Of a stretch of 64,000 bases of DNA, positions 4,660-61,167 are shown one piece after another (position 1 is the first letter of the stretch; each line of letters starts with the position of its first letter). Source of the DNA: an uncultured Cytophagia bacterium (GTDB lineage: Bacteria; Zhuqueibacterota; Zhuqueibacteria; Residuimicrobiales; Residuimicrobiaceae). The DNA is taken from contig CAYLWO010000002.1 of the NCBI GenBank assembly GCA_964387285.1, positions 4,070 to 68,069 of the forward strand, read 5' to 3'. The notes below the pieces were generated by a model, which saw only the letters and a program-made list of their open reading frames with translations, had not been told where the DNA came from and did not search any database. A program made the position numbers and the translations under genes.

Positions 4660-4660
4660 G

Positions 4661-11769: not shown

Positions 11770-12534
11770 TCAACCCTTGAACTGTTTCATCTTTTCGTAC
11801 TGTTTTAATATTTCACCCATATAGGTCGGCACATCATCCGGCAAAATGCCGTTAGGGCGTCCTTCCTTGATCCATTGACTGGCCCGCCACTCGCCGACGC
11901 GACGTGCAGCCAAAGCGCCATCCACGCCATAAATATCGATAAGAGCTGCCAAATATCGCGTACCAATACGAATATTAAGGATGGGATTCAACAAAATCTC
12001 GTCCGGAGTCACCCAGTTCAAATTCATATTACGTGCAATGTAGGACCCGGTAATCGGCATTACCTGCATGAGACCCATGGCGCCTTCTCGCGAGATCATC
12101 TCCGGATTCCAGGTCCCGTTGGTTTCAAAGGTGATGATGGCGCAGACCAAATGTACGTCCAGGCTGGTGTATTGCAAGCTGGCGTCATATATTTCACGCG
12201 CCACGTCGTACTTTAACGGGCCGGGCATTGTTTGGTTATACTGCGAAATGAGGGCGCTAATCCGCGCAATATTAAACTGTCGCAAACTCTCGATATTCAT
12301 CGAGGCGCGTTGGCCTTTAATCACCTCTTCCAATTCGGTAATCTTTTTCAGATAGCGATTGTTATAGGTATATTTGATGCCGACTGCGACAATAATTAAC
12401 AACGCCAACGCCGACAACACCCAGATGGCATGGCGCAGATAATGCATGAATTTTTCTTCATTGAATAGCATTTTACGCTCCCATAAAAATTGAACTGCTG
12501 CCATAAAAATACAAAATTGCCGTGATTCTATCAA
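11770..12534 (-). CDS. Membrane-anchored lytic transglycosylase (SLT domain)
   Basis: N-terminal TM helix. SLT catalytic region EGAMGLMQVMPITGSYIA. Confidence 0.75.
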   Translation of the reverse strand: MIESRQFCIFMAAVQFLWERKMLFNEEKFMHYLRHAIWVLSALALLIIVAVGIKYTYNNRYLKKITELEEVIKGQRASMNIESLRQFNIARISALISQYNQTMPGPLKYDVAREIYDASLQYTSLDVHLVCAIITFETNGTWNPEMISREGAMGLMQVMPITGSYIARNMNLNWVTPDEILLNPILNIRIGTRYLAALIDIYGVDGALAARRVGEWRASQWIKEGRPNGILPDDVPTYMGEILKQYEKMKQFKG

Positions 12535-12607: not shown

Positions 12608-13708
12608 ATGGAAGCGTTAATGATCCTTGCATCTTTTATTGCTTTACTACTCTATGCCGGCATATTGCTCTGGCTGTACTTTGGCCTGGAGCGTCGTCAA
12701 CCACAGGCGCCTGTGCAGAAAGAAAAAATAACTGTTATCATTGCCGTGCGCAATCGCCGCGAAGAATTGCTGCGCTGTCTGCAAGCCTTGGCCAATCAGG
12801 AATATGACCGCCCTTACAACGTTATTATCGTAGACGATCATTCGACAGACGGTACGTTTGAAATCACAGAACAGTTTCTCCAACACCATTCAGACTGGCG
12901 AATCATTCATGCCGAGTCTTCATCCGCATGCGCCAGTTCGAAAAGAGCCGCTTTACATCAAGCTATTCTACAAGCAGAAGGCGAATGGCTAGTCTTTACG
13001 GATGCGGATTGTATTCCCCCAGTCACATGGTTGTCCGGCTTGAGCGGGTATTTTTCAGCAGAGACGGTTTTGGTGGCAGGATTTTCTCCGCAAGTCAGCG
13101 CCGGAAAAAGCGGGTGGAGCAACGTACTGCTTATCGATAGTCTATCCGCGGCACTGGTATCTGCAGCGACCATTGGCCGACAATACGGCGTTACCGGCGT
13201 TGGCCGCAACCTAGCCTATCGTCGCTCAGCTTGGAACAAAATTTCCGGATTTGACGCCTTGCCGGATACCTTGTCCGGGGATGATGATTTTATCATTCAG
13301 GAATTAAGTCGGCACGGTCGCGTACAGTATTGTCTGTCCCCGGAAGCGGTCGTCCCGGCACAAGGACCGTCTGACCTGCGTGAATTTTTGTGGCAAAAAC
13401 AGCGCCATCTTTCCAGCGGGCAATTTTATCCACTGCCGGCTAAAATTGCTTATAGCGCTTATCACAGTACAAACTTGCTGCTCTGGCCGCTCTTTTTCTT
13501 CGGTCTATGGAATCACTGGCTATTTTATCCTCTTTTGTGCAAATGGGTGCTCGACTTTTATGTTCTCCAGGACCTGGCAAAACGGTTGCAGCAGAAAATA
13601 CGCTGCCTGCCTTTTTTGATTTGGCAGGGAATTTTTGTATTTTATAACATCCGGGCAGGCTGGCAGCGATTTCGACCTCCGCCCACCTGGCAGGCAGATG
13701 GACCGTGA
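12608..13708 (+). CDS. Membrane GT2 glycosyltransferase, ceramide-glucosyltransferase/HpnI-like (GT21-like) paralog 1
   Basis: N-TM, VIIAVRNRREEL...VIIVDDHSTDGT (D1/D2), FTDADC, SGDDDF (D3), QKQRH (QxxRW-like) and C-terminal TM helices. Confidence 0.75.
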   Translation: MEALMILASFIALLLYAGILLWLYFGLERRQPQAPVQKEKITVIIAVRNRREELLRCLQALANQEYDRPYNVIIVDDHSTDGTFEITEQFLQHHSDWRIIHAESSSACASSKRAALHQAILQAEGEWLVFTDADCIPPVTWLSGLSGYFSAETVLVAGFSPQVSAGKSGWSNVLLIDSLSAALVSAATIGRQYGVTGVGRNLAYRRSAWNKISGFDALPDTLSGDDDFIIQELSRHGRVQYCLSPEAVVPAQGPSDLREFLWQKQRHLSSGQFYPLPAKIAYSAYHSTNLLLWPLFFFGLWNHWLFYPLLCKWVLDFYVLQDLAKRLQQKIRCLPFLIWQGIFVFYNIRAGWQRFRPPPTWQADGP

Positions 13709-14511
13709 GAAAAAAAATTAACGAAATACTGTGGTCCGAATATCAGGCTGCGATGCTGCATCGCGGCTGGTTAATTGCCGAAATTTTAGAAAAACGACTC
13801 GATTTAGCCGGCGCCCGAATAGCGGATTTGGGATGCGGCCATGGCGGCGCATCGCTGCAACTAGCCGAACGAGGGGCAGTTGTGGCCGCAGTCGATCGTC
13901 GAGCAGATACGGCAGCGCAACTCCAGGAGATGGCGCAAAAGAAAAAACTGACCGTTACCGTTCATGCTGCCGACATAGAAACCTGGCAGCCGCAAACTCC
14001 TGTGGATGCTGTTGTGCTGTGGGATGTACTGGAACATATTGCCCATCCCTTACTGCTGTTGCAGCATATCCGACGATTTCTCAAACCGAAAGGATTTTTA
14101 CTTTTGGCTACGCCGAATAAATGGTCACCGCTCAATCTGCTCTGCGATCCGCACTATAGTTTGCCCGGTATAGCTTGCTGCAAACGCACCCGTGTCTATA
14201 AAATCGTCGTGCAACGCTTGCATTGGTTTGCACCGGAGAAAACAGATATTGCACAATTAATTTCCTGGCGTGAATTACACGCCCTTTTACATGGCGCCGG
14301 TTTTAATTATGACTGGGTGGTTAAAGAGGTCTCAGAACTGGCTCTACAGAATCCGGCCAGCATATGGAACCGGCCTTGGCATTTACGATTGATTCACCTG
14401 ATAATGAACATGCGTCTGTCGCGCATCGTTCTCTCTGCGGCGCCGAAAAAACCGGGCTTGCTTAACCAAAGGCTTTTACCGACCTTTTATGTGCTGGCGA
14501 GTAAACGGTGA
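13705..14511 (+). CDS. Class I SAM-dependent methyltransferase
   Basis: Motif I DLGCGHGGASLQLA, post-I acidic VDRRAD, motif II VDAVVLWDVLEH. GTG start overlaps the upstream stop (GTGA). Confidence 0.75.
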   Translation: MRKKINEILWSEYQAAMLHRGWLIAEILEKRLDLAGARIADLGCGHGGASLQLAERGAVVAAVDRRADTAAQLQEMAQKKKLTVTVHAADIETWQPQTPVDAVVLWDVLEHIAHPLLLLQHIRRFLKPKGFLLLATPNKWSPLNLLCDPHYSLPGIACCKRTRVYKIVVQRLHWFAPEKTDIAQLISWRELHALLHGAGFNYDWVVKEVSELALQNPASIWNRPWHLRLIHLIMNMRLSRIVLSAAPKKPGLLNQRLLPTFYVLASKR

Positions 14512-15518
14512 AAGAACTTCCGATCAGAGCAATATTGAAAAGCATCACACGGTATCGCCTGAATAATGCGTTAAAACTGAGCGCCGGCTTTATTTTTTCA
14601 AAATTGCTGGGTTATCCATTTGTTTGGGGCCAGCCTTTTGTGGTGACGATAGAGCCAACCAATCTCTGCAATCTGGCCTGTCCACAGTGCGCGGTCGGCG
14701 CCGGAGTCTTGACGCGCCCTCGCGGCCAAATGCCGCTGGATCTCTATCGTGACATTTTAGAACAGATGCATCGTTCCCTCTGCTATTTACTGCTATACGA
14801 TCAGGGCGAACCGCTGTTGCATACGGACTATTGCGAAATGATTCGATTAGCAAAAGCCAAAAACATGGCCGTCACCTGCAGCAGCAACGGTCAATTGCTT
14901 GGCGATAAAGATATAGCCCGTTGCCTGGTCGCTTCCGGGCTGGACAACCTGATTATCTCCATCGACGGTTTGACGGAACAAACGTACCAAACCTATCGAA
15001 AAGGCGGGCAACTGTCTAAAGCAATCCAGGCAATCAAAAATGTTCAACAGGCTCGAAGCATTCTCAAAACAAAAACACCGCGAATTTGCGTTCAATTTCT
15101 GGTTACAAAACATAATGAAACCGAATTGCCGCACCTGGCTGAAGCGGTTCGCGACTGGGGGGCTGATCTACTGCTGATAAAAAGCATGCAGATTTGCACA
15201 CCGGCTGATGCTGAACAGTGGCTGCCGCGGCAGGAAAAATATCGCCGGTATCGAACCCGGAACAATCAACTGGTTACAAAAAAAAGAAACCGCATATGCC
15301 CCCGCTTGTGGTACAGCAGCGTCATACATCAGGACGGCAGCGTGGTGGCTTGTTGCTTTGACAAAGACAATCAATTCGTTCTCGGCCGCATGACCGAGAC
15401 GCCGTTTACACAACTCTGGCACGGTTCCGCTTTACAGGCATTGCGTACGGCTGTGCTGAATAAAACCAAACCAAATTTATGTAGAAATTGCACAAATGGA
15501 CTGGCGCTTTACAAATAA
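14508..15518 (+). CDS. Radical SAM protein, MoaA/HpnH-like with Cys-rich C-terminal (SPASM/twitch-like) domain, paralog 1
   Basis: EPTNLCNLACPQC (Cx3Cx2C) and GEPLLH. C-term CPRLW...VVACCFD...LCRNC. The GTGA overlap with the upstream gene indicates coupling. Confidence 0.7.
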   Translation: MKELPIRAILKSITRYRLNNALKLSAGFIFSKLLGYPFVWGQPFVVTIEPTNLCNLACPQCAVGAGVLTRPRGQMPLDLYRDILEQMHRSLCYLLLYDQGEPLLHTDYCEMIRLAKAKNMAVTCSSNGQLLGDKDIARCLVASGLDNLIISIDGLTEQTYQTYRKGGQLSKAIQAIKNVQQARSILKTKTPRICVQFLVTKHNETELPHLAEAVRDWGADLLLIKSMQICTPADAEQWLPRQEKYRRYRTRNNQLVTKKRNRICPRLWYSSVIHQDGSVVACCFDKDNQFVLGRMTETPFTQLWHGSALQALRTAVLNKTKPNLCRNCTNGLALYK

Positions 15519-16470
15519 AAAAACCGTCATCTTTTGGATCAAAGGCGTGATTGCCGTTTGCGTTCTCGCACTTTTGGTGCGGCGCATCAGTTGGCGCGCT
15601 CTGCTGGAGGCTGTATATCAGGCGCAGGCAGAATGGATTATCGCAGCGGCCCTTTTATTGATTCCCAATATTTTTTGTCAGTTTAAACGCTGGCAACTCA
15701 TCACCCGACAGCTCCATCCGGATACGTCGAATCCGGTGGTGGCGCGTTCTCTTTTTGCCGGCATCACTCTCGGTTTTATCACGCCCGGCCGCATCGGCGA
15801 TCTGGGGCGAACGATTTTTATTCCACAGGCCAATTGGCTTGGATTGGTCGGTTTGATGTTGGTGGAAAAATGGTATAGCCTGCTGATCATTTACTGGTTC
15901 GGCTTATTAGGCATCATTCCCATCCTGTCGACCGCGTTTAAACTGGAACTGTGGATCCCGGCCGTGCTGACCGGACTGATTATGATTTTGGCCGGCATCA
16001 GCCTGGTGTTGCATCCGGGATTTTTAAATTATATTCTCAAACGCTTCGACAAAGCGAGAAAAAGAAAACGACTGCATCAGGTCTTTGCCGGCATCAATGC
16101 CTTGACGCCAAAATTGTCCCTCCAGCTTTTGCTTTATACCCTGATACAGGTCCTCGTTTATTTCGGACAATTCTACCTTCTCGTGAGAGCATTTACCCCC
16201 TTGCCGCTCTTGCGGGGCTTGGCAGCCGTCGCGGCGATCATGTGGAGTAAAACCCTGCTGCCCATTTCTCTAGGCGATCTGGGCGTGCGTGAAAGCGCAG
16301 CCGTTTATTTCCTCGGCAAATTGCATACGCCCGCAGCCGTTGCGTTTGACAGCGCCTTACTCTTGTTCGCCATCAATATTTTACTGCCGGCCATTATCGG
16401 CTTTGTGGTATTGCTGCAGAGTCGAATCTTGCAAAATGGGCCCGGTAAAACCATGAGGTCACGGTGCTGA
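15496..16470 (+). CDS. Flippase-like integral membrane protein (lysylphosphatidylglycerol-synthase TM-region / UPF0104 family)
   Basis: About 8 predicted TM helices. Conserved FITPGRIGDLGRT motif. 23-nt overlap with the upstream gene. Confidence 0.6.
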   Translation: MDWRFTNKKTVIFWIKGVIAVCVLALLVRRISWRALLEAVYQAQAEWIIAAALLLIPNIFCQFKRWQLITRQLHPDTSNPVVARSLFAGITLGFITPGRIGDLGRTIFIPQANWLGLVGLMLVEKWYSLLIIYWFGLLGIIPILSTAFKLELWIPAVLTGLIMILAGISLVLHPGFLNYILKRFDKARKRKRLHQVFAGINALTPKLSLQLLLYTLIQVLVYFGQFYLLVRAFTPLPLLRGLAAVAAIMWSKTLLPISLGDLGVRESAAVYFLGKLHTPAAVAFDSALLLFAINILLPAIIGFVVLLQSRILQNGPGKTMRSRC

Positions 16471-17579
16471 TATATTATCTCGTTATTTCTCTAGTATACA
16501 TTTTATTTATCGCCTGGATATACAAGGGGATTCAGCAGTTAAATGAACAAAAGGTAAATTTTCAACAACCGATTGTCAATGTCATCGTTCCAGCGCGCAA
16601 TGAAGCCGCAAATCTTGCCGAATGTCTAACGCATTTAAAGCAACAGAGTTATCCGGCACATCGTTACGAAATCATCGTCGTCGATGACGGCTCTGTTGAT
16701 GAAACAGGCAGGATAGCAAAAGAGCAGGGCGTTCGCTGCCTGACTCTGGATGTTATTCCCAAGGGCTGGTCGCCCAAAAAGGCCGCCCTGGCCCTGGCGA
16801 TCCGCAACAGCAATGCAGAAATTATTCTAACCACCGATGCGGATTGCCGTGCGCCGCGGGAATGGATCGAATCCATGATCCGTCATTTCACGGCCGATGT
16901 CGGCGTTGTGGCTTCGTGGGTTGGGATTGCCGAAACAGGCTCCTTGCTGGCGCGTTTAGAAGCTCTGGATACGCTTTCGTATCAAATGATTGGCGCTGCG
17001 GCCATCGGACACGGAAAACCTTTTTTGGCTAACGGCGCCAATTGGGGGTACAGACGCGAGCTTTATGCTGAGGTCAACGGCTTTAGCGGCATCGAATCAT
17101 TGGCCTCCGGCGACGATGATCTGTTACTGCAAAAAATGGCGCAAAACGGCAAATGGCGCGCAGCCTTCAGCAACGAATCAAGCACGCGCCTTATCACCAA
17201 AAGCTGCACGTCCTGGTCCGGCTTTTTCATGCAGCGCCTGCGCTGGGCTTCCAAGAGCCATCGTTATCCGCTATCCGTTATTCTTTTGGAAGGATTTATT
17301 TTTATTTACCATTCTTCCCTGTGGTTGGTATTGGTCTTAAAAATTAACTCGCCGCTCTGGTTTTTATTTCTTCTGGTTAAACTGGTCAGCGATGCTCTAT
17401 TGGTTCGCACGGTGATGCAAAACATCAATTTTAAATTTCACTGCTTCGATATGCTGCTGGCCCAGATCGGACAGATGATTTACACGGTTATCCTCGGCTT
17501 GCTGGCGTGGCGCGGCCGCTTTGTCTGGAAAAATCGTGTTTATAATCGCGGTACGCTGGTTGAAGAAAAAAGGGTTTGA
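16464..17579 (+). CDS. Membrane GT2 glycosyltransferase, GT21-like paralog 2
   Basis: VNVIVPARNEAANL, IIVVDDGSVDET, TTDADC, SGDDDLL, QRLRWASK and C-terminal TMs. GTG start overlaps the upstream stop. Confidence 0.75.
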   Translation: MLIYYLVISLVYILFIAWIYKGIQQLNEQKVNFQQPIVNVIVPARNEAANLAECLTHLKQQSYPAHRYEIIVVDDGSVDETGRIAKEQGVRCLTLDVIPKGWSPKKAALALAIRNSNAEIILTTDADCRAPREWIESMIRHFTADVGVVASWVGIAETGSLLARLEALDTLSYQMIGAAAIGHGKPFLANGANWGYRRELYAEVNGFSGIESLASGDDDLLLQKMAQNGKWRAAFSNESSTRLITKSCTSWSGFFMQRLRWASKSHRYPLSVILLEGFIFIYHSSLWLVLVLKINSPLWFLFLLVKLVSDALLVRTVMQNINFKFHCFDMLLAQIGQMIYTVILGLLAWRGRFVWKNRVYNRGTLVEEKRV

Positions 17580-17638
17580 AAAAAAGCTCTTGTTTGATAT
17601 ATTTAGCTGAATGGCACGATAGGCGCCCGCAAAACAAC

Positions 17639-17666
17639 CTTGCGAAGGTTTAGAGCCTTCGCCAAG
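17639..17666. terminator. REP-like palindromic hairpin (family C/D copy 1), possible internal terminator/attenuator
   Basis: cttgcgaaggtttagagccttcgccaag is a near-perfect inverted repeat, about 60 nt after the GT2 paralog 2 stop. It is near-identical to 51447-51474. No strong T-run follows. Confidence 0.4.
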
Positions 17667-17725
17667 ATAATACAATCGTTCAGTTCTGGTAAATAATATT
17701 TTGACACCCGTTTTGGGATTATCGA

Positions 17726-19288
17726 ATGAAACACATTCTTGCCATAACCATCATTTCATATTCGCTGCTCTTTTCGGCCCCCCCCAGTTCCGTGAATGTG
17801 CCGAATGACTATTGGGGATATGGTTTTCTGGAACGTATGGAAACCAAGGGACTGTTGAAAAGTTACCAGCTTTGTACCCGCCCTGTTTCGCGTACGATCT
17901 TTGCCGAACTGTTGCGGCAGACGACAGAACAATTGCAGCGCAATGCCGCAATTCTGAGCAAAACGGATCAGCAATTGCTCGAGCAGCTCCAGGGCGATTT
18001 TTACGATGAACTGCATCCTGTCTCATCCGAGCGCGGTCCCGAACGCCATTTTACCAGTTGGAAAGAAGGGCAAAGCCGTTTGCATATCGATCTGTATGGC
18101 AAACAGTCCATCATCTCCAATCGTGGCCAGCAATATGAAACCAGCGAGTTGATCTCTGAAACCTCTCTCGGCGCCATCCTGCGCGGCTCGCTCAGCAACA
18201 CCATCGGATTTTATCTGGATGCGCGCAATGCACTCACCCGCGGCAAGGATGAAATATTGGAAGAAAATTTCGATCCGTCTCAGGGCTCGCCGGTGGTGAT
18301 TTCCGGTTCAAACGTTTTTCAGGATCGCGCGCTCGCTTACTGGACCTGGCAGAATGCCTGGCTGCGCCTGCAAATGGGCCGTGACGAATTGCAATGGGGA
18401 CCGGGATATCATGCCGGTCTTTCCATCTCCGGCAACATGCCGGCAACAGAAATGATCCGCCTCAGCGCCTCCTTTCGTCGTTTTAAATTCAGCTACATTC
18501 ACGCCTTTCTGCGCAGCAGTCTCGGCCCTAAATATCTGGCCGGTCATCGCCTGGATTACATGGTCAAACCCGGCCTCTATTTCGGCGCATCGGAAACGGT
18601 TATTTATGGCCAACGCGACGTCGAGTTCGCCTATCTCAATCCCATCATGCCGATTCATGTCGCGCAACACCATCTGGGCGACAAGGACAACAAGACCATG
18701 AGTTTGGATGCGACCTGCACGCTGGTCCGCAACTGCAAACTGTATCTGGAATATTTCATCGACGACATGACCAGCAGTGAGAGTTTGACCAAATTCTACG
18801 GCAACAAATTCGCCTTTCTGACCGGAATTCTTTGGACCGATCCGTTGCATATCGCCAATACCGATCTTCGCTGCGAATACTCGCACGTCGAGCCGTACGT
18901 CTATACACACTGGGATTCCATCAACATCTACACCAACTATGACCAGATCATCGGCCACTGGTTGGGGCCTAATGCAGACTGTCTCTTCATACAGGCCGGC
19001 TGGCAACCTTTGCGCGATTTTCGCGTCGAGTTTTTTTGGGAACAGCAGCGCAACGGCGCCGGCAACGCGGACACGCGCACCAGACCTGAACAAGGCATGA
19101 CCAAGCAATTTTTGGGCGGCGTGGTGGAAAAGAAAAAAATGATCGGTTTAAAACTGGTCGAACAGATACGTCGCGATATGTTTGCCTCAGTCAGTTATAC
19201 CTACTGTGATACCCGCAACCTGCATCGCCAGGCTGGTAAAACCTCCTTTGATCATCTGGCCCGCTTTGAATTCTGGTTAAATTATTGA
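17726..19288 (+). CDS. Outer-membrane beta-barrel protein, possibly Wzi-like capsule/glycan anchoring family
   Basis: Signal peptide MKHILAITIISYSLLFSA. N-terminal helical region PNDYWGYGFLERMETKGLL. Aromatic-rich amphipathic strands. C-terminal ...FEFWLNY. Confidence 0.45.
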   Translation: MKHILAITIISYSLLFSAPPSSVNVPNDYWGYGFLERMETKGLLKSYQLCTRPVSRTIFAELLRQTTEQLQRNAAILSKTDQQLLEQLQGDFYDELHPVSSERGPERHFTSWKEGQSRLHIDLYGKQSIISNRGQQYETSELISETSLGAILRGSLSNTIGFYLDARNALTRGKDEILEENFDPSQGSPVVISGSNVFQDRALAYWTWQNAWLRLQMGRDELQWGPGYHAGLSISGNMPATEMIRLSASFRRFKFSYIHAFLRSSLGPKYLAGHRLDYMVKPGLYFGASETVIYGQRDVEFAYLNPIMPIHVAQHHLGDKDNKTMSLDATCTLVRNCKLYLEYFIDDMTSSESLTKFYGNKFAFLTGILWTDPLHIANTDLRCEYSHVEPYVYTHWDSINIYTNYDQIIGHWLGPNADCLFIQAGWQPLRDFRVEFFWEQQRNGAGNADTRTRPEQGMTKQFLGGVVEKKKMIGLKLVEQIRRDMFASVSYTYCDTRNLHRQAGKTSFDHLARFEFWLNY

Positions 19289-19295
19289 TCCGGCC

Positions 19296-20411
19296 TTGAT
19301 AATAATTTTCTACATAACCTGCGGAATGACGGCCATTTACGGCTTGTGCCTCATACTGTTCTCCCTGGGATTGCTGCGCAGGCAGAACAAAAGTGTATTA
19401 CAACCCTTTGTTTCTGTAATTGTAGCTTGTCGCAATGAACAGGAAAATATTACACCCCTGTTGCATGCCTTGACCCGGCAAAATTACCCATCTACGCGCT
19501 TTGAAATTGTCCTGGCCAATGACGCCTCTACAGACGAAACAGGGCAACGGATCAGCGCTTTTTTTAAGACCAATCCCAGTGTTGCTATTAAAAAAATCTC
19601 CGTGCAGAACCGCGATCAGGCGGCTTCGCCCAAAAAAAATGCGCTGAGTCAGGCGATTGCATTTTCTACAGGAGAGGTGCTGCTTTTTACAGATGCCGAT
19701 TGTCGGCCAGGCCCGGACTGGATCGCAAGTATCGTCCAATATTTCTCGCCAGATGTTGGCATGGTTATCGGTTTCTCGCCGTATGAATTGCCTTCGCTGC
19801 AGGGCATTGGGCAACGATTGCTGGCCATAGAGTCCCTATCCCTCGCAGCTCTGGCTGCCGGCACAACCGGATGGGGACGGCCGGCCACCTGTACCGGTCG
19901 CAATCTCGCCTATCGCAGAAAAGTTTATGATGAATTGGGCGGATTCAAGGAAATTGCGCAATTTGTATCCGGCGACGACGATTTGTTTTTAAAACTGGTC
20001 GTGCAACGCACGCGCTATCGGGTAAGATACGCGTTGGACAGCCGCGCGGTTGTGCCGACTCTAATTTTGACAAATGGCCGGCATTTTTTTCAACAACGTT
20101 TGCGCCACGCTTCCAAAGGTTTTCACTATGGCTGGCGCATGACCTCTGTGCTGGCCGGCGCCTGGTTGTACAATTTTTTGTTGTTGGGATTGCTGTTAAC
20201 TCCGTGGCGCGGATATGCCATTATGCTTTTCCTGGTAAAAGCCTTTTCAGAATTACCGCTCCTGCTGGGTTTTGCAGCAAAAATGAACAGAGTATCCTAT
20301 TTTACCGTTTGGCCGTTGGCTGCTTTTTTGCATATTTGTTACGTCGTGGTCATTGGCGCATTGGGACCGTTCCTGAAATTCAATTGGAAAGAGATCAGGG
20401 TTCATTCATGA
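19296..20411 (+). CDS. Membrane GT2 glycosyltransferase, GT21-like paralog 3
   Basis: VSVIVACRNEQENI, FTDADC, SGDDDLF, QQRLRH and C-terminal TMs. Confidence 0.75.
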   Translation: MIIIFYITCGMTAIYGLCLILFSLGLLRRQNKSVLQPFVSVIVACRNEQENITPLLHALTRQNYPSTRFEIVLANDASTDETGQRISAFFKTNPSVAIKKISVQNRDQAASPKKNALSQAIAFSTGEVLLFTDADCRPGPDWIASIVQYFSPDVGMVIGFSPYELPSLQGIGQRLLAIESLSLAALAAGTTGWGRPATCTGRNLAYRRKVYDELGGFKEIAQFVSGDDDLFLKLVVQRTRYRVRYALDSRAVVPTLILTNGRHFFQQRLRHASKGFHYGWRMTSVLAGAWLYNFLLLGLLLTPWRGYAIMLFLVKAFSELPLLLGFAAKMNRVSYFTVWPLAAFLHICYVVVIGALGPFLKFNWKEIRVHS

Positions 20412-21556
20412 TTGGCTTGTCCTACATCGTCCTGGCGTTGACGATTGTTTACGGAATAATCCTTCTGGTCTTTATTGTTGCGCTACGCTTTCCGAGTAAG
20501 GCAAACAGCCCTTTGCAGCCGCGTGTTTCCATCATTGTTGCTGCGCGCAACGAAGAAGCCAACATTGCCGCGCTGCTGGAGGATTTGGTGCAGCAGGATT
20601 ATCCGGCTGAATATGAAATCATTATCGCCAACGACGGTTCAACCGATGGCACGGCTCATCTGGTCAACGGGTTTTGCACCCGCTTTGCCAATATCCATCT
20701 ACTCAATATCGATGAGGCGCCGGCAGGATTCAGTCCGAAAAAATATGCCTTACAATGCGCAGTGGAAAAATCAACCGGCGAGATCATTCTGGCCACGGAC
20801 GCAGATTGTCGCGTGGGACCGGGCTGGATTTCCGGCATGGTTGCTTATTTTGCGCCCGAGGTGGGTTTTGTTATCGGTTTTTCGCAATATGGCAGACCGG
20901 GGCAAAAACAAAAACTGGTGGAACGGTTTCAAGCGTTCGATTTTGTCACGCTCATGGCTGTGGCAGCGGCCAGTACGCATCTGCGCATTCCCATGGCAGC
21001 CTCGGGACAAAATCTGGGCTATCGTCGCGCCGCGTTCATTCAGGTGGACGGCTATCGTTCCATCAGCCATCGCATGTCCGGCGACGATGTCCTACTCATG
21101 CAATTGATTCGCCGTCGCACGGATTATCGTATTTTATACGCTTCGGACCCGCGCACGTATGCTGTGTCAGCGCCGCAACCCACCTGGCCCGCTTTTATCA
21201 ATCAACGCAACCGCTGGGCCTCTAATGGCGGCTATCAATTGCTGTTGAGCCCCTTGTTCTTTAGCTATCTGGTTTTCACCTTTTCCTATAATTTGGCGCT
21301 GCTGCTTGGCCTCTCACTTTACGGCGCCGGTGTTCTTGGCGGATGGGGCATGCCGCTCTGCTTTCTGGCCAAAGGATTTTTTGAATTTTGTGTGGCTTGT
21401 AGCGGTTGCAGATATTTTCAGCGATCTGATCTGCTGAAATATTTTCCTCTGTGGTTTCTACTGCAGATTCCCTATATTGTTCTGGTCGGCGCCATGGGTT
21501 CTTTGGGATTATTTCGCTGGAAGGGCCGCAAAGGCGCGACAAGGATCCGGGCATAG
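20408..21556 (+). CDS. Membrane GT2 glycosyltransferase, GT21-like paralog 4
   Basis: Start ATG overlaps the paralog 3 stop (ATGA). VSIIVAARNEEANI, ATDADC, SGDDVLL, NQRNRWAS. The longer ORF from 20204 was rejected because it overlaps the paralog 3 coding region. Confidence 0.7.
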   Translation: MIGLSYIVLALTIVYGIILLVFIVALRFPSKANSPLQPRVSIIVAARNEEANIAALLEDLVQQDYPAEYEIIIANDGSTDGTAHLVNGFCTRFANIHLLNIDEAPAGFSPKKYALQCAVEKSTGEIILATDADCRVGPGWISGMVAYFAPEVGFVIGFSQYGRPGQKQKLVERFQAFDFVTLMAVAAASTHLRIPMAASGQNLGYRRAAFIQVDGYRSISHRMSGDDVLLMQLIRRRTDYRILYASDPRTYAVSAPQPTWPAFINQRNRWASNGGYQLLLSPLFFSYLVFTFSYNLALLLGLSLYGAGVLGGWGMPLCFLAKGFFEFCVACSGCRYFQRSDLLKYFPLWFLLQIPYIVLVGAMGSLGLFRWKGRKGATRIRA

Positions 21557-22076
21557 CCAAAGGCTGTTTATTTTTTTTCGTTATAATAATAAATGACGTT
21601 CAATGATGCTGTAAGAAATTTATGATCTATTCCCCCATAGTCGCCCAGATGTTTGATGCGACCGGCGAAGTTCTTTTGCACCTGCATCTCGATGCCAATC
21701 TTGTTAAATCTATATCCTGCCGCTAAAATAAAACCGGTAAAGCAAGATAAGCTTCAGCCCAATCCGCATTTACAATCTGTGACCAGTTGCTATAATATGC
21801 CGTTCTATTTTCCACTCTGGCTCCGCGTAGTAGAATTTCCATCCCATAGACCAGCGAAAGGTATTTTTTTGCAAACTCTCGACGCCTATGCCCATGGAAT
21901 ACCTTAATAGTGGTTTGGAAGAGGTGTCGTAAAATTTGGAGCAATTAACGCTGCCGGAAATAAAAAGGGCGAGCCGGCTCGGGTTTCAGAAAAACGAAGC
22001 AACATCAGGAATAGAAACAAAATGCTTTCTAAAACCGTCTGAAAACCGTAAATTCTGCACTGATTTGAGGAAGAGC

Positions 22077-23132
22077 ATGAGCGCACCGATACAGCTGCTA
22101 AACAATCTGTTACATCGCCGGCCGGTCAACTCGAGCACGGAAATCCGTCTGACCCGCCTGTGCACGCAACGCTGCCGGCAGTGTCGCGTTTACGAACGGG
22201 AAACCCAGCCGGCCAGCATGAGTCTGGAACAATTTCAAATGATCCGGCGGCGGTTGCGTGAATACGGTGCCTGGCTCGGCTTTATCTCCGGCGGCGAAGC
22301 GTTGCTGGCGCCGGATCTGTTGCCCATCCTGGCAGAGGCGAAAAAGACCTTTCGCTGCGCCACCACCCTGGTCACAGGGCTTTACCATCAACGTCAACGG
22401 GTATTGGAAGCGGCCGAGTTTTGCCTGGCAAACAATATCAACATCCAGACCTCCATGGACGGCATCGGCCCTGTGGGTAATTACTTGCGCGGCGTCAAGA
22501 ATTTTAGCGATACCGTGCTGGAGCATATGGCCTTAATCAGCGCCATGAAAAAAAATTCTCAATCGCTGCTCTACGCAAACATTGTGCTCAACAACCTGAA
22601 TCGCAACCAGGTTCCGGATCTGATCCGGCGCTGCCGCGGCCTGGGTTGGCGCGTCACCATCGGCCTGTATCACAACCTTACCGAGACCACACGCAGAGAC
22701 GACGAGTTGCGTATTACACCGGATGAACAACTTGATCAACTGCTGGCTTTTCTGGATCACAATCCGGATATTTTGAATTTAAATTCATTCATTCGCGGCA
22801 TCGGCCCGTTTTTACGCAGCGGGAAAACGACACGTTGTCCCTTTGTCGCCGGCCGCATCTGGATGACGCGCACCACCATCATGGAAAACGGCGACCTGCA
22901 TCTGTGTTGGGGCGGCCCCATCGGCAATCTTTTCTCCTCTTCCCTGCGGGAAATATTCCACAGCTCCGTTTATACCGACCGCCTGGCTGCTTACGACCGC
23001 TGTGCCGGCTGTTGGACCACCTGCTACACGCAACGGCTGTTGCTCTTGCGTCCTCGCTCCCTGACCGAATTACGAGACAACATCGTCAAGATGATCCACC
23101 TGCGTCGTTATCAACAGGAGCGGCCGGCGTGA
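22077..23132 (+). CDS. Radical SAM protein with Cys-rich C-terminal domain, paralog 2
   Basis: RLCTQRCRQC (Cx3Cx2C), ISGGEALL. C-term CPFVAG...LHLCWGG...CAGCWTTC. Start chosen at the ATG preceded by GAGGAAGAG. The ORF-track start at 21936 lacks an RBS. Confidence 0.65.
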   Translation: MSAPIQLLNNLLHRRPVNSSTEIRLTRLCTQRCRQCRVYERETQPASMSLEQFQMIRRRLREYGAWLGFISGGEALLAPDLLPILAEAKKTFRCATTLVTGLYHQRQRVLEAAEFCLANNINIQTSMDGIGPVGNYLRGVKNFSDTVLEHMALISAMKKNSQSLLYANIVLNNLNRNQVPDLIRRCRGLGWRVTIGLYHNLTETTRRDDELRITPDEQLDQLLAFLDHNPDILNLNSFIRGIGPFLRSGKTTRCPFVAGRIWMTRTTIMENGDLHLCWGGPIGNLFSSSLREIFHSSVYTDRLAAYDRCAGCWTTCYTQRLLLLRPRSLTELRDNIVKMIHLRRYQQERPA

Positions 23133-23899
23133 AAAAATTTTTATTTCTTTTACTGATCGCCGGCGTAGCCGGCAGTGGTGAAAAAGTGCGATTCATCGGC
23201 CATGCTGATTTAAATCGATTTATTGGCGAACAACTGGATTTCTCCTTGTCCTTGCGCGGGGTCAGCGCAGCCAAGGCGCGCATGCTTTGCGACACCCTCG
23301 GTATCGACCGCTGGCTTATCTCAGCCGACATATCGACAAAATTCTGGGCTGATCTGGTTTTCCCAGTGCACAATATTTACCAGACCTTTCTCGATCGCCG
23401 CGACGGCCGCACTGCAGAGACCTATAAAAAAATCAAACAAAAAAATCTTGGCCAGGAGATGCATGTCGTTTTTGATTATAAACAAAAGCAGGCGACCGGT
23501 TATTCGGATGGCAGCCGCACCATTCGCGATTCCCTGCAAACCCTCTTTGCCATGCTCTATCACTTGCGCGCCATGGATTTGTCTTTACATGATTCTGTCT
23601 TCTGTTTATTGGAAATTGAATCACAGTGGTGGCAAGTAGCCGGGAAAGTCAGACAGGGAGAAAAAACCACCGGACCTTTTTCTCGTCTCGAGGTCCGCGA
23701 TGTGGTGCTTACTTTTTCCCCTCACGGCGCGGTTGTTGCCCGTCCCTGGAAAACCGATTTGCTGACCAATCGCATTGCCCGCAGCGGCCGGTTGCTCATC
23801 CGGCTGGGGCCTGCGCCGGAGAATTTGCCAATATGGATACAGATCGGCGAGGCCAAACAGACCGTGACGCTCAAATTGAACAGCTGTAAAAAGGTGTAA
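23129..23899 (+). CDS. Secreted hypothetical protein (possibly DUF3108-like)
   Basis: GTG start overlapping the upstream stop (GTGA). Signal peptide VKKFLFLLLIAGVAGSG. About 256 aa, no catalytic motif recognised. Confidence 0.4.
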   Translation: MKKFLFLLLIAGVAGSGEKVRFIGHADLNRFIGEQLDFSLSLRGVSAAKARMLCDTLGIDRWLISADISTKFWADLVFPVHNIYQTFLDRRDGRTAETYKKIKQKNLGQEMHVVFDYKQKQATGYSDGSRTIRDSLQTLFAMLYHLRAMDLSLHDSVFCLLEIESQWWQVAGKVRQGEKTTGPFSRLEVRDVVLTFSPHGAVVARPWKTDLLTNRIARSGRLLIRLGPAPENLPIWIQIGEAKQTVTLKLNSCKKV

Positions 23900-23902
23900 T
23901 GC

Positions 23903-25030
23903 ATGGTCACGCTCATCCATATATTTTGCGCCATCCTCTATCTTTTAGTAGGCATCGCTATCCTGTTGCTGCTGAAAAAAAGCTGGCCACAAAAAAAGTC
24001 TGTGGAACCGGTTCTGGCCTCTGTCATCATTGCCGGACGCAATGAAGCGCCGCATTGGCCGGCCTGTTTGGACGCTTTGGCAAATTTGGATTATCCGACG
24101 GACAAATTGGAAATCATCCTGGTTGACGATGCCTCCCGCGATCACTCCTTGTCGCTTTTGCGTGCGTTTGCGCAACAGCGTCCGTTTGTACGCGTCATCT
24201 CCCTTTCTGTGGAAGCGAAAGAATTGGCCGGCAAGGCCGGCGCGGTTTTGCCGGCCATCGAATCCAGCAAGGGCGAAATTATCTTTGTCACGGATGCCGA
24301 TTGTCAAGTTCCGCAAAACTGGATTTTAAGTCACCTTTCCTTCTTTACTGATGAGGTGGGATTGGTCGGCGGCCTGACTTTGCTGGATCAACCGCGTCAC
24401 AAGTATGGCGCTTTTCAGCGTATCCAATCCCTGGATTGGTTGTTCCTGCTGTCGGTCGCCTTTGCGGCCGGCCGTATCGGCAGACCCCTGAGTTGGATGG
24501 GCAACAACATGGCCTTTCGTCGCACAGCGTATCACGCGGTGGGCGGCTATCGTTCGCTGGCCAGCCATTTAATCGAAGATTTCAGTCTGATGGACGCGAT
24601 GGTCCGGCAGACTCCGTGGCGGGTTGTTTTACACACCCAGGCCTCGGCCATGGTGCTAAGCTGCGCTGAAAAAACCGTGACCGGGCTTTATCGACAGCGT
24701 CGGCGTTGGGCCCTGGGCGTACGACCGGTGCGCCTGTTGGGTAAAGGCTTGTTGTCGGTTTTTTATATCAGCCACATGCTGGTTTGGTTGGCGTTGGTTT
24801 GCAGCCAGACAACAGGATGGCTGCTATTTATCGTCATCCTCGCAACAGATGCAGCCATTCTGATCACAGCTGCCGGACCGATCAACCGGCATGATCTGTT
24901 GAAATGGCTGCCTAGCTTGCAATTGTATTATTTCCTGGCAATCTTGTTGCTGCCGCCGATTCTTTTATTCGATAAAAAAATCATCTGGAAGGACAAGGTC
25001 TACCATTCAATGGATCAAAGTGTCCGCTGA
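23903..25030 (+). CDS. Membrane GT2 glycosyltransferase, GT21-like paralog 5 (divergent D3 motif EDF)
   Basis: ASVIIAGRNEAPHW, IILVDDASRDH, VTDADC, LIEDFSLMDAM (resembles the AEDYF region of ceramide glucosyltransferase), RQRRRWALG, C-terminal TMs. Confidence 0.75.
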   Translation: MVTLIHIFCAILYLLVGIAILLLLKKSWPQKKSVEPVLASVIIAGRNEAPHWPACLDALANLDYPTDKLEIILVDDASRDHSLSLLRAFAQQRPFVRVISLSVEAKELAGKAGAVLPAIESSKGEIIFVTDADCQVPQNWILSHLSFFTDEVGLVGGLTLLDQPRHKYGAFQRIQSLDWLFLLSVAFAAGRIGRPLSWMGNNMAFRRTAYHAVGGYRSLASHLIEDFSLMDAMVRQTPWRVVLHTQASAMVLSCAEKTVTGLYRQRRRWALGVRPVRLLGKGLLSVFYISHMLVWLALVCSQTTGWLLFIVILATDAAILITAAGPINRHDLLKWLPSLQLYYFLAILLLPPILLFDKKIIWKDKVYHSMDQSVR

Positions 25031-25073
25031 TAACAACCTGGTTGTCTAGTGCGTATTTAAGCCGGAATCGATC

Positions 25074-61151: not shown

Positions 61152-61167
61152 GGTGCTTTTGCCTTAT

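What the first reader, a model, noticed from the sequence alone, without database searches (positions are those of the whole stretch)
15496..19288. Flippase-like membrane protein and Wzi-like outer-membrane barrel embedded in the GT/radical SAM locus suggest an envelope export route
A UPF0104 / lysyl-PG-synthase-TM-type protein (motif PGRIGDLGRT) overlaps the first radical SAM gene by 23 nt. A 520-aa signal-peptide protein ending in FEFWLNY, with an N-terminal helical PNDYWGYGFLERMETKGLL region, sits between GT paralogs 2 and 3. Together they would provide inner-membrane translocation and outer-membrane display of the product, which is unusual for purely cytoplasmic-membrane glycolipids.
Basis: partly seen in the sequence, partly recalled or inferred. 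Interest (0 to 1): 0.5.

Follow-up and report, generated by a model that had tools for sequence, protein, structure and literature searches.

The report
Envelope glycan cluster with Wzi-like barrel
Two real envelope genes, an MprF-type lipid flippase homologue and a Wzi-type outer-membrane barrel, sit in a sugar-transferase cluster conserved across the uncultured phylum KSB1; the barrel is more likely a sugar-binding anchor than an export pore, and its inner domain resembles the cell-wall-binding SLH domain.

Summary

Both lie in a 13-gene, co-directional cluster of candidate division KSB1. A GT2 gene follows the Wzi-like gene in 59 of 62 related loci. The flippase-like gene lies upstream in 28 of 41, and a GT2 gene follows it in all seven annotated loci inspected, including three without Wzi.

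Wzi is a sealed lectin, not a conduit, and the window holds no Wza, Wzc, Wzx or Wzy. The two genes belong to separable modules.

One new point emerged. The N-terminal helical region is homologous at profile level to the SLH domain and stalk of OmpM (hhalign 95%, z about 17 over shuffles). It keeps the SLH ligand-binding Trp and Arg invariant, which canonical Wzi has lost.

The most likely mechanism is that membrane GT2s build a lipid-linked glycan, the MprF-type protein flips it, and the barrel binds and retains it. The product is unknown.

The parts
11770..12534 (-). Divergent SLT lytic transglycosylase gene; conserved left border of the cluster
   Evidence: PF01464 E 2.3e-15. An SLT homologue holds the same position in most loci that carry the full cluster.
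12608..13708 (+). GT2_A, a membrane GT2/GT21-type glycosyltransferase (module 1)
   Evidence: PF00535 E 2.8e-23, PF13506 E 5e-9. N-terminal TM segment, DAD and DDD motifs, QKQRH.
13705..14511 (+). SAM-dependent methyltransferase (module 1)
   Evidence: PF13489 E 2e-22. 4-nt overlaps with both neighbours. Conserved in relatives.
14508..15518 (+). Radical SAM/SPASM enzyme rSAM1; a variable member, absent from some relatives
   Evidence: PF04055 E 6.4e-14, PF13186 E 1.4e-13. Absent in L002, L013, L016, L017 and L046.
15496..16470 (+). Stand-alone UPF0104/PplT protein, an MprF flippase-domain homologue and the predicted lipid translocator
   Evidence: PF03706 E 1.6e-22, full length. The model matches only MprF structures. 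The conserved motif is TPGRIGExGR. It overlaps rSAM1 by 23 nt and GT2_B by 7 nt.
16464..17579 (+). GT2_B, the membrane GT2/GT21-type glycosyltransferase always paired with the flippase-like gene
   Evidence: PF00535 E 5.8e-25, PF13506 E 2e-14. QRLRW, one N-terminal and about four C-terminal TM segments. The pairing is seen.
17576..17676 (+). Promoter-like sites in the 146-nt gap before the Wzi-like gene; a possible separate transcription start for module 2
   Evidence: TTGAAA-16-TATATT with an upstream TG (17576-17603), and a second site at 17649-17676. These are consensus matches only.
17726..19288 (+). Wzi-family outer-membrane protein (520 aa)
17726..17782 (+). Signal peptide (about aa 1-19; no lipobox Cys)
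   Evidence: By inspection: K2, then the hydrophobic ILAITIISYSLLF. This is the least conserved segment of the family. No signal-peptide predictor was available.
17795..18013 (+). SLH-like periplasmic helical domain (aa 24-96) with invariant W30, Y32, P53 and R56
   Evidence: Family profile against the PDB: OmpM1 SLH/stalk E 2.5e-4, plus Sap and SlpA SLH. hhalign 95%, score 43.5 against a maximum of 16 in 200 shuffles. A profile search of 1.84e9 proteins returns Pfam-validated SLH proteins.
18053..19285 (+). 18-stranded beta-barrel (aa 110-520) ending in an aromatic residue. Loops L5 (aa 296-321) and L7 (aa 389-416) are the most conserved segments.
   Evidence: DSSP of the model. Conservation by segment: L5 0.83 and L7 0.82 mean top-residue frequency, 10 invariant residues each.
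19296..20411 (+). GT2_C, which follows the Wzi-like gene in 59 of 62 relatives (module 2). Public gene calls start at 19326.
   Evidence: PF00535 E 2.9e-22, PF13506 E 6.9e-14. Synteny. Gene call.
20408..21556 (+). GT2_D (module 2)
   Evidence: PF00535 E 4.1e-21, PF13506 E 8.3e-15 (on the longer ORF 20204-21556). 38% identical to GT2_C. Terminator-like hairpin at 21553-21567.
22077..23132 (+). Radical SAM/SPASM enzyme rSAM2 (variable; module 3). The ORF is open from 21936.
   Evidence: PF04055 E 2e-7, PF13186 E 1.7e-4. Gene call. Promoter-like site at 21769-21796, 11 of 12 matches.
23129..23899 (+). DUF3108 protein with an N-terminal signal-peptide-like segment; a candidate periplasmic component
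   Evidence: PF11306 E 3.3e-7, 30.8 bits against a cut-off of 26. Conserved in the cluster. The literature assigns DUF3108 a YmcC/GfcB-like fold (PMC4364669), which was not tested here (one search found no PDB sequence match).
23903..25030 (+). GT2_E (module 3)
   Evidence: PF00535 E 3.6e-20, PF13506 E 8.3e-16. QRRRW.
25074..26075 (+). Radical SAM enzyme rSAM3, the radical SAM gene most often retained with module 3
   Evidence: PF04055 E 1.7e-21. Present in L002 and L013-L017, which lack rSAM1 and rSAM2.
26072..27661 (+). 529-aa CehA/McbA-like (PHP-type) metallohydrolase, the last gene of the cluster
   Evidence: NF038032 E 1.5e-20, 73.9 bits, just under the cut-off of 80. No Pfam hit. Conserved with rSAM3.

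Best explanation
The two genes are genuine members of their families and are parts of a 13-gene envelope glycoconjugate cluster conserved in candidate division KSB1. The cluster is built from three modules:
1. GT2_A, methyltransferase, (rSAM1), UPF0104 protein, GT2_B.
2. Wzi-like protein, GT2_C, GT2_D.
3. (rSAM2), DUF3108, GT2_E, rSAM3, metallohydrolase.

Proposed mechanism:
- Five paralogous membrane-embedded GT2/GT21-type transferases assemble a lipid-linked glycan at the cytoplasmic face of the inner membrane. The methyltransferase and the radical SAM enzymes modify it. Deeper KSB1 lineages add a CE4 deacetylase, which suggests a hexosamine-containing product.
- The stand-alone MprF-type protein, always paired with GT2_B, moves a lipid-linked intermediate or product to the periplasmic leaflet, as proposed for HexF and GpgF.
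- The Wzi-type 18-strand barrel is not a conduit. It is a carbohydrate-binding anchor embedded in the outer membrane. Its unusually conserved loops L5 and L7, and its SLH-like periplasmic domain with invariant Trp and Arg, bind the glycan and hold it at the outer membrane, or equivalently couple the outer membrane to it.

Shown here: family membership, predicted folds, gene order and its conservation, and the SLH homology.
Inferred: the lipid nature and chemistry of the product, flipping, glycan binding, and the side of the outer membrane on which binding happens.
How the product crosses the periplasm is not encoded by these two genes. The secreted DUF3108 protein is the only candidate in the cluster.
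For: Family and fold.

Operon-like packing: 4- to 23-nt overlaps within modules, with promoter-like or terminator-like sites only at the two module borders.

Synteny across 65 species-level genomes: GT2 directly after Wzi in 59 of 62; the flippase-like gene upstream in 28 of 41.

Flippase-GT2 pairing holds in all seven annotated contexts inspected. These include the Wzi-free loci L072 (flippase-GT2-CE4-GT2), the P0152 locus (GT2-rSAM-flippase-GT2-CE4-GT2) and L075.

A CE4 deacetylase lies between the GT2_B-like gene and Wzi in L036, L037, L048, L050, L065 and L074. L074 also has GlmS upstream.

Precedent: HexSDF and GpgSDF are GT + deacetylase + MprF-like flippase operons that make aminoglycolipids (PMC10128005, PMC12713373). 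UPF0104 is often fused to GT domains (bioRxiv 10.1101/2022.03.11.483950).

The five GT2s are 26-38% identical, each with an N-terminal TM segment; four of the five also have C-terminal TM segments, and all carry DAD and QxxR(W/H) motifs.

Wzi is a sealed lectin whose loops L3, L6 and L7 bind polymer (PMC3791409). Here L5 and L7 are the most conserved parts of the protein.

SLH homology with retained W and R. The roles of W34 and R64 in SLH ligand binding are given in PMC10628300.
Against: - No experiment exists for any KSB1 protein, and the product is unknown. No NCBIfam equivalog model reached its cut-off for any gene of the cluster.
- Flipping by stand-alone UPF0104 proteins has not been demonstrated. 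HexF is dispensable for HNHDRG synthesis and GpgF is untested (PMC10128005, PMC12713373).
- 13 of 41 loci have Wzi-GT2-GT2 without a flippase gene within 7-10 kb.
- The GT2s carry QxxRW and their best NCBIfam match is PgaC, though far below the cut-off. A self-translocating polysaccharide synthase is therefore not excluded.
- The SLH-like domain is a single copy, lacks the conserved Gly (OmpM1 G58), and lies only about 13 residues from strand 1. E. coli Wzi is a monomer whose equivalent bundle plugs the barrel (PMC3791409). The domain may therefore be a structural plug and not a ligand binder.
- The window protein itself has SRTI in place of TRAE.
- The structures are predictions, and their coordinates could not be inspected for pore occlusion.
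Confidence: 0.45

Rival explanations
1. The flippase-like protein and the Wzi-like barrel together form the export route: the lipid is flipped at the inner membrane, and the barrel carries the product across the outer membrane or inserts it there for surface display.
Against: The barrel is about 10 Z units closer to Wzi than to any channel. [quoted passage not shown] The conserved long loops L5 and L7 fit lumen-filling loops. No OPX, Lpt-like or TPR partner is present. The DUF3108 fold was not verified.
Confidence: 0.17
2. A synthase-dependent exopolysaccharide or oligosaccharide system of the PNAG (PgaABCD) or Nod-factor type. One or more GT2s are processive synthases that polymerise and translocate a hexosamine polymer themselves, CE4 partly deacetylates it, the methyltransferase modifies it, and the Wzi-like barrel is the outer-membrane porin. 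The UPF0104 protein is accessory.
For: QxxRW in GT2_B, D and E and multi-TM architecture. The best NCBIfam hits are PgaC_IcaA (E about 1e-23) and, more weakly, NodC. CE4 deacetylase and GlmS occur in deeper clades, and one locus has a weak PilZ hit. The NodB/NodS analogy rests on my own knowledge.
Confidence: 0.15
3. The Wzi-like protein is mainly an outer-membrane-to-cell-wall tether, and perhaps also a porin, of the OmpM kind. Its SLH-like domain binds peptidoglycan or a secondary cell-wall polymer. Its position in the GT cluster reflects a general cell-envelope neighbourhood (SLT, MurC, RodZ, Maf) and not use of the cluster's product.
For: SLH homology extends into the OmpM stalk motif. W30 and R56 are invariant, as is Y32, which aligns with OmpM1 Y36 (PMC10628300). 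The flanking cell-wall genes are conserved. The homologues in L001 and L067 have no GT2 neighbours.
Against: GT2_C follows in 59 of 62 loci at a gap of 7 to about 40 nt, which is much tighter than neighbourhood-level linkage. There is no long coiled-coil stalk to reach the wall: about 13 residues separate helix 3 from strand 1. The domain is a single SLH copy on a barrel whose closest relative is monomeric (PMC3791409). No CsaB-type pyruvyltransferase is in the window.
Confidence: 0.13
4. The co-location is incidental. The two genes have unrelated functions and were noticed only because the families have suggestive names.
For: The modules are separable. There is no functional evidence.
Against: Conserved order, overlapping reading frames and co-orientation across genomes as divergent as 40-45% protein identity.
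Confidence: 0.03

Closest known systems
E. coli / Klebsiella Wzi (PDB 2YNK), the outer-membrane lectin of group 1 capsule
   Different: About 14-17% identity, and no direct sequence hit to 2ynk with either the protein or the family profile. It is not next to wza-wzb-wzc or a Wzx/Wzy locus but between membrane GT2 genes. It keeps the SLH Trp and Arg, where canonical Wzi has Asp and Gln (SQEE). It comes from an FCB-group candidate phylum.
HexF (C. difficile hexSDF) and GpgF (P. aeruginosa gpgSDF), stand-alone MprF-like flippases of aminoglycolipid operons
   Same: A stand-alone UPF0104/PF03706 protein encoded next to a lipid glycosyltransferase. Deeper KSB1 clades and the Wzi-free relatives also have a polysaccharide deacetylase (PMC10128005, PMC12713373).
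   Different: The partner transferase is a membrane GT2/GT21 type, not GT4/GT28. The cluster adds four more GT2s, a methyltransferase, radical SAM enzymes and outer-membrane and periplasmic proteins. The window's own clade has no deacetylase. The product is unknown.
MprF flippase domain (PDB 7DUW, 9GOE, 7F47)
   Same: The same fold: only MprF structures match, with query-normalised TM-score 0.61-0.64. Full-length PF03706 match.
   Different: No C-terminal aminoacyl-PG synthase domain. 12-17% identity. No sequence-level PDB hit even with a profile. The NCBIfam MprF model scores 14.8 bits against a cut-off of 600.
OmpM / SlpA class: an SLH domain, a coiled-coil stalk and an outer-membrane barrel that tether the outer membrane to the wall in diderm Terrabacteria (PDB 8BZ2, 8BYM, 7ZGX)
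   Same: An N-terminal single SLH-type module followed by a helix with the L..L...F..EL motif, then an outer-membrane barrel. The ligand-binding Trp and the TRAE Arg are conserved (PMC10628300).
PgaABCD (PNAG) and NodABC/NodS systems
   Same: A GT2 with TM segments and QxxRW, a CE4 deacetylase (in relatives), a methyltransferase and an outer-membrane barrel. The composition of the Pga and Nod systems is from my own knowledge.
   Different: All model scores are far below the cut-offs. There are five GT2 paralogues. There is no PgaA-like TPR porin, no NodA acyltransferase and no NodIJ exporter. A UPF0104 flippase-like gene is always paired with a GT2.
GfcB/YmcC (group 4 capsule lipoprotein with a LolA-like fold), as a possible analogue of the cluster's DUF3108 protein
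   Same: A secreted accessory protein encoded beside an outer-membrane barrel in a glycan locus. The literature assigns DUF3108 the YmcC fold (PMC4364669), and GfcB is LolA-like (PMC8592465).
   Different: Not verified here.

Membership tests
Wzi (Caps_assemb_Wzi, PF14052) | Match to the family HMM above the curated threshold | tested here: met
   70.1 bits against a cut-off of 30.1, E 2.3e-19. All 120 listed homologues carry PF14052.
Wzi (Caps_assemb_Wzi, PF14052) | 18-stranded outer-membrane beta-barrel, closest in fold to 2YNK | tested here: met
Wzi (Caps_assemb_Wzi, PF14052) | N-terminal periplasmic helical bundle preceding strand 1 | tested here: met
   Helices 31-40, 56-72 and 79-96. They align with the canonical Wzi N-terminus at 79% hhalign probability.
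Wzi (Caps_assemb_Wzi, PF14052) | Encoded with wza-wzb-wzc in a Wzy-dependent group 1 capsule locus | tested here: not met
   No Poly_export/Wza, Wzc, Wzx or Wzy family was found in any sizeable ORF of the 64-kb window. The neighbours are GT2 genes.
Wzi (Caps_assemb_Wzi, PF14052) | Binds its cognate surface polysaccharide (lectin); barrel sealed | not testable with these tools
   This needs binding assays or coordinates. The only indirect hint is the high conservation of L5 and L7.
UPF0104 / PplT / MprF flippase domain (PF03706) | Full-length match to PF03706 above threshold | tested here: met
   80.8 bits against 33.4, profile positions 2-302 of 302.
UPF0104 / PplT / MprF flippase domain (PF03706) | Multi-helix membrane fold of the MprF N-terminal domain | tested here: met
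   The model has pLDDT 88.8. The only credible PDB matches are five MprF entries.
MprF proper (bifunctional Lys/Ala-PG synthase-flippase) | C-terminal aminoacyl-phosphatidylglycerol synthase domain | tested here: not met
   The protein is 324 aa with PF03706 only. NF033480 scores 14.8 bits against a cut-off of 600.
HexSDF / GpgSDF-type glycolipid operons | Stand-alone MprF-like gene adjacent to a lipid glycosyltransferase gene | tested here: met
   GT2_B overlaps it by 7 nt. The same pairing is seen in seven of seven annotated contexts.
HexSDF / GpgSDF-type glycolipid operons | Polysaccharide deacetylase in the operon | tested here: not met
   Absent from the window cluster. Present in deeper KSB1 clades and in Wzi-free relatives.
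HexSDF / GpgSDF-type glycolipid operons | Product is a membrane aminoglycolipid; the protein flips it | not testable with these tools
   This needs lipidomics and a flipping assay. Flipping is unproven even for HexF and GpgF (PMC10128005, PMC12713373).
SLH domain (PF00395) / OmpM-type tether | Match to the Pfam SLH model above threshold | tested here: not met
   No hit for the window protein at E <= 10. 1 of 33 family members hit at E 0.045.
SLH domain (PF00395) / OmpM-type tether | Profile-level homology to bona fide SLH domains | tested here: met
   Against the PDB: OmpM1 E 2.5e-4, plus Sap and SlpA; 8 of 16 hits are SLH proteins. hhalign 95%, score 43.5 against shuffles at 9.7 +/- 2.0. 7 of the top 147 hits in 1.84e9 proteins are Pfam-validated SLH proteins, and the only other recurrent family is Wzi. 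The best single-domain E-values are modest, 0.004-0.03.
SLH domain (PF00395) / OmpM-type tether | Ligand-binding Trp, Gly and TRAE Arg conserved | tested here: inconclusive
   W30 and R56 are invariant in 40 of 40 sequences, and the Arg is the only invariant column across the 147 hits. The Gly58 equivalent is not conserved. The window protein has SRTI, while many relatives have S/T-R-x-E/D.
SLH domain (PF00395) / OmpM-type tether | Long coiled-coil stalk and trimeric assembly that reach peptidoglycan | tested here: not met
   Only about 13 residues separate helix 3 from strand 1 in the monomer model. The oligomeric state was not testable.
Synthase-dependent exopolysaccharide systems (Pga, Bcs, Alg) | Processive GT2 synthase reaching the family model cut-off, with a TPR-linked or dedicated outer-membrane porin | tested here: not met

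The most novel reading that the evidence does not exclude
The 'unique' N-terminal helical bundle of the Wzi family is a diverged SLH domain. In KSB1 it is still a working glycan-binding module, with invariant Trp and Arg. The protein would then be a previously unrecognised kind of SLH-barrel outer-membrane protein outside the Terrabacteria. It would couple the outer membrane to a periplasmic or cell-wall-associated glycopolymer or glycolipid made by the adjacent five-GT2 cluster and delivered by the MprF-type flippase. That would be a phylum-wide envelope-tethering or glycan-retention system with an unknown ligand.
Probability: 0.25. Interest if true: 0.75.

Novelty: new variant of a known kind. 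Interest (0 to 1): 0.55.

Why it matters
If the mechanism holds, three things follow.

1. It would extend the 'glycosyltransferase plus stand-alone MprF-like flippase' logic to a diderm candidate phylum and to a much larger pathway. That logic has so far been shown only for small aminoglycolipids in C. difficile and P. aeruginosa.

2. It gives Wzi-family proteins a context outside Wzy-dependent capsules. The family is common in environmental bacteria, where its role is unknown.

3. It links the unexplained N-terminal bundle of Wzi to the SLH domain. That gives a concrete, testable idea of what the bundle once did and may still do in KSB1. It also touches the question of how outer membranes are tied to the underlying wall in lineages outside the well-studied Proteobacteria.

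The cluster was found in at least 65 species-level genomes, so it is likely a core envelope trait of the phylum.

Tried and rejected
- Direct sequence searches of both proteins and their family profiles against PDB sequences found neither Wzi nor MprF. Fold comparison was needed.
- NCBIfam gave no model above its cut-off for any cluster gene. The weak HpnI, HpnB, HpnH, PgaC, NodC, MftF and Tes hits were considered as clues to a hopanoid, PNAG, Nod or tetraether product and rejected as non-diagnostic.
- The Pfam SLH model on single N-terminal sequences was not significant. Only profiles detect the relationship.
- The canonical Wzi N-terminus compared directly with OmpM SLH was not significant (score 14.2, within the shuffle range). 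The link is transitive, through the KSB1 family.
- A marginal match of the N-terminal profile to the J-type co-chaperone JAC1 (E 0.022) echoes the DnaJ-like resemblance noted for Wzi (PMC3791409). I treated it as helical-repeat noise, because it misses the Trp-to-Arg segment.
- A DUF3108 profile against the PDB gave nothing useful.
- My first adjacency counts with tight distance thresholds under-counted, because stop-to-stop ORFs overlap and some loci carry 1-4 kb insertions. I recounted.
- Rfam and tRNA scans of the window were empty.
- Pore occlusion and docking of the N-terminal domain could not be examined, because model coordinates are not exposed.

Full report
OBSERVATION

ORF 15496-16470 (324 aa, ATG) overlaps the upstream radical SAM/SPASM ORF 14508-15518 by 23 nt and the downstream GT2 ORF 16464-17579 by 7 nt, and it contains ITPGRIGDLGRTIF. 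ORF 17726-19288 (520 aa) begins with a signal-peptide-like MKHILAITIISYSLLFS, contains PNDYWGYGFLERMETKGLL and ends FEFWLNY.

Pfam confirms both family guesses well above the curated thresholds. PF03706 scores E 1.6e-22 over the whole profile, and PF14052 scores E 2.3e-19 over residues 207-506. Identical proteins are already called in public assemblies (P0001, P0121). The named homologues are almost all 'candidate division KSB1' or Candidatus Zhuqueibacterota.

THE TWO PROTEINS

An AlphaFold2 model of the 520-aa protein, built on 40 homologues, has pLDDT 88.4 and pTM 0.86. It shows three N-terminal helices (31-40, 56-72, 79-96) followed by 18 strands. The even-numbered connections are 2-7-residue turns, and the odd-numbered connections are loops of up to 28 residues, which is the classical outer-membrane topology.

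Within the family, the most conserved segments are the predicted outward-facing loops L5 (aa 296-321, 10 invariant residues, including the conserved family motif HVA(E/Q)HHLGDxDN) and L7 (aa 389-416, 10 invariant residues). The strands are less conserved. In E. coli Wzi the long loops fold into and seal the barrel, and loops L3, L6 and L7 bind the K30 polymer (PMC3791409).

The model of the 324-aa protein (pLDDT 88.8) matches five MprF cryo-EM structures (query-normalised TM-score 0.61-0.64) and nothing else credible. It lacks the aminoacyl-PG synthase domain, so it is a stand-alone UPF0104/PplT protein and not MprF itself.

THE CLUSTER AND ITS CONSERVATION

The two genes belong to a co-directional run of 13 genes (12608-27661), in this order:
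- GT2_A, methyltransferase, rSAM1
- UPF0104 protein, GT2_B
- Wzi-like protein, GT2_C, GT2_D
- rSAM2, DUF3108, GT2_E, rSAM3
- a CehA/McbA-like metallohydrolase

Within blocks the genes overlap or abut. Only two gaps exist, 146 nt before the Wzi-like gene and about 520 nt before rSAM2. Both gaps carry promoter-like matches, and the second is preceded by a terminator-like hairpin (consensus matches only).

The five GT2s are 26-38% identical paralogues, each with an N-terminal TM segment; four of the five (all but GT2_A) also have C-terminal TM segments, and all carry DAD and Q-x-x-R-W/H.

A scan of one genome per species returned 65 loci encoding a relative of the Wzi-like protein at 34-67% identity. 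I searched their six-frame ORFs with the window's proteins and recounted with corrected thresholds:
- A GT2 gene directly follows the Wzi-like gene in 59 of 62 loci with enough flank.
- The flippase-like gene lies upstream in 28 of 41 loci with at least 7 kb of upstream flank.
- rSAM1 and rSAM2 come and go.

Approached from the flippase side, a GT2/GT21 gene follows the flippase-like gene in every annotated context inspected. That includes loci with no Wzi: L072 (flippase-GT2-CE4-GT2), the P0152 locus (GT2-rSAM-flippase-GT2-CE4-GT2-536 aa) and L075.

The data do show two separable units, flippase-GT2 and Wzi-GT2-GT2.

Deeper KSB1 lineages insert a roughly 215-aa CE4 deacetylase between the GT2_B-like gene and Wzi. 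One of them has GlmS just upstream, which hints at hexosamine chemistry.

No Wza/OPX, Wzc, Wzx, Wzy, CsaB or dedicated ABC exporter is encoded anywhere in the window's sizeable ORFs.

A NEW POINT: THE N-TERMINAL REGION IS SLH-LIKE

The full-length family profile found only three PDB sequences, all the SLH/stalk region of Veillonella OmpM1 (E 0.002-0.11).

A profile of the N-terminal 93 residues alone (A3) gives the following:
- It hits OmpM1 at E 2.5e-4 and also B. anthracis Sap and D. radiodurans SlpA. Eight of the 16 listed PDB hits are SLH proteins.
- hhalign gives 95% probability over 73 columns. The score of 43.5 compares with 9.7 +/- 2.0 (maximum 16.0) for 200 shuffles of the OmpM sequence.
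- Searched against 1.84 billion representatives, it finds 877 proteins at E <= 1e-3. Of the top 147, 67 carry PF14052 and 7 carry PF00395 (SLH, up to E 1.9e-31). No other family recurs.
- The single-domain E-values for SLH proteins are modest (0.004-0.03). The Pfam SLH model does not detect single family members. The claim therefore rests on profile-level homology.

The alignment places invariant W30 on OmpM1 W34, invariant Y32 on Y36, and invariant R56 on R64 of the TRYE/TRAE motif. According to PMC10628300 the Trp contacts the sugar and the Arg binds the ketal-pyruvate of the wall polymer. The equivalent of Gly58 is not conserved. The Arg is the only invariant column across all 147 retrieved proteins.

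I recovered the 2ynk sequence and 1,889 canonical Wzi homologues. The enterobacterial Wzi N-terminus aligns with the KSB1 domain at 79% probability, but it has Asp and Gln (SQEE) at the Trp and Arg positions. It is not detectably similar to OmpM directly.

The KSB1 family is thus an intermediate that links the 'unique' Wzi helical bundle to SLH. No paper in the searchable library mentions both Wzi and S-layer homology.

There are caveats. The domain is a single copy. It lies about 13 residues from strand 1 and has no long stalk. The E. coli equivalent plugs a monomeric barrel.

MECHANISM

Best-supported reading (confidence about 0.45):
- Membrane GT2s assemble a lipid-linked glycan on the cytoplasmic face, and the methyltransferase and radical SAM enzymes modify it.
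- The MprF-type protein paired with GT2_B flips a lipid-linked species, as proposed but not proven for HexF and GpgF (PMC10128005, PMC12713373).
- The Wzi-type barrel acts as a binding and retaining anchor at the outer membrane and not as a pore. Possible binding surfaces are L5 and L7 and the SLH-like domain.
- Transit across the periplasm is not explained by these two genes. The secreted DUF3108 protein is the only candidate. The literature assigns that family a YmcC/GfcB fold, and GfcB is LolA-like (PMC4364669, PMC8592465).

Rivals: a literal export route through the barrel (0.17), a PNAG- or Nod-like synthase-dependent system (0.15), an OmpM-like wall tether unrelated to the product (0.13), and coincidence (0.03).

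COMPARISON AND NOVELTY

Each protein is a member of a known family (PF14052, PF03706). The combination is not a member of any described system:
- It lacks the Wza-Wzb-Wzc/Wzy context that defines Wzi's known role.
- It lacks MprF's synthase domain.
- It differs from HexSDF and GpgSDF in transferase class and in scale.
- It fails the cut-offs of every curated pathway model.

I rate it a new variant of known kinds, with one potentially new insight, the SLH ancestry and retained binding residues of the Wzi N-terminal domain.

LIMITS

All structures are predictions, and their coordinates could not be inspected. Synteny counts rest on phmmer assignments of stop-to-stop ORFs. The product, the flipping and the binding are inferred. 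The statements on QxxRW in non-processive GT21 enzymes, on Pga and Nod system composition, and on the FCB placement of KSB1 come from my own knowledge.

Noticed in passing
L036:5792-6430, L037:9002-9670, L048:7729-8436, L050:7793-8434, L065:6199-6843, L074:9284-9916: Deeper KSB1 lineages carry a roughly 215-aa CE4 (NodB-type, FLTFDDGP...) polysaccharide deacetylase between the GT2_B-like gene and the Wzi-like gene. The window's clade lacks it. L074 also has GlmS and an LppC/TPR protein upstream, and a weak PilZ hit downstream.
   Followed up: partly
L016:7248-9881; L036:6582-9769; L048:8556-9830; L050:8510-9820: Some relatives have 1-4 kb insertions between module 1 and the Wzi-like gene. L016 has a 368-aa minus-strand ORF. 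L036 has a RecQ-like helicase and a DprA-like ORF. L048 and L050 have a class-V aminotransferase-like ORF. These assignments are by inspection of motifs only. The insertions show that the module boundary is a recombination-tolerant point.
   Followed up: no
window 14508-15518 and 21936-23132: Two of the three radical SAM/SPASM genes are accessory. Both are absent from otherwise complete clusters (for example L002/L021, L013, L016, L017 and L046), while rSAM3 (25074-26075) and the 529-aa hydrolase stay together.
   Followed up: partly
P0282 (618 aa) and P0296 (615 aa): These proteins have an N-terminal SLH domain above the Pfam threshold and the same stalk-like L..L..FA.EL helix, but no Pfam Wzi hit in the roughly 500-residue remainder. 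They may be evolutionary intermediates between OmpM-type and Wzi-type proteins.
   Followed up: no
L001 (CP070762.1, 10001-11578) and L067 (Neomarinimicrobiota, 9199-10716): These Wzi-like homologues (45% and 34% identity) are not followed by GT2 genes. In L001 the gene sits after a methyltransferase and a methylmalonyl-CoA mutase, with an Omp85 gene nearby. The family therefore also exists outside the GT2 cluster.
   Followed up: partly
window 26072-27661: The terminal 529-aa protein has no Pfam hit. It matches the CehA/McbA (PHP-type) metallohydrolase domain model just under its cut-off (73.9 against 80 bits). A protein of similar size and unknown function ends the Wzi-free cluster that encodes P0152.
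   Followed up: partly
window 3961-8644 (minus strand): A second glycan-related group lies upstream: a WbqC-like protein (3961-4692), a GT4 glycosyltransferase (4661-5803) and an 831-aa right-handed beta-helix protein (6149-8644).
   Followed up: no
window 46038-48106 (minus strand): A spore-photoproduct-lyase-family radical SAM gene (PF20903, E 8e-30) overlaps a gene for a protein with a ParB N-terminal domain. This is an odd pairing in a phylum not known to sporulate.
   Followed up: no
window 18308-19108 (minus strand): A 266-aa TTG ORF lies antisense inside the Wzi-like gene. It is very likely spurious, because the plus-strand gene is conserved and modelled with confidence.
   Followed up: no
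window 33749-35311 (minus strand) and 41475-43550, 59667-62307: A GWxTD-domain protein and several large ORFs (691, 494 and 379 aa) with no Pfam match.
   Followed up: no
PDB 3uo2/3uo3: The N-terminal profile also hits the J-type co-chaperone JAC1 marginally (E 0.022, profile positions 23-88). The authors of the 2013 Wzi structure noted a DnaJ-like arrangement of the Wzi bundle. The coincidence is unexplained.
   Followed up: no
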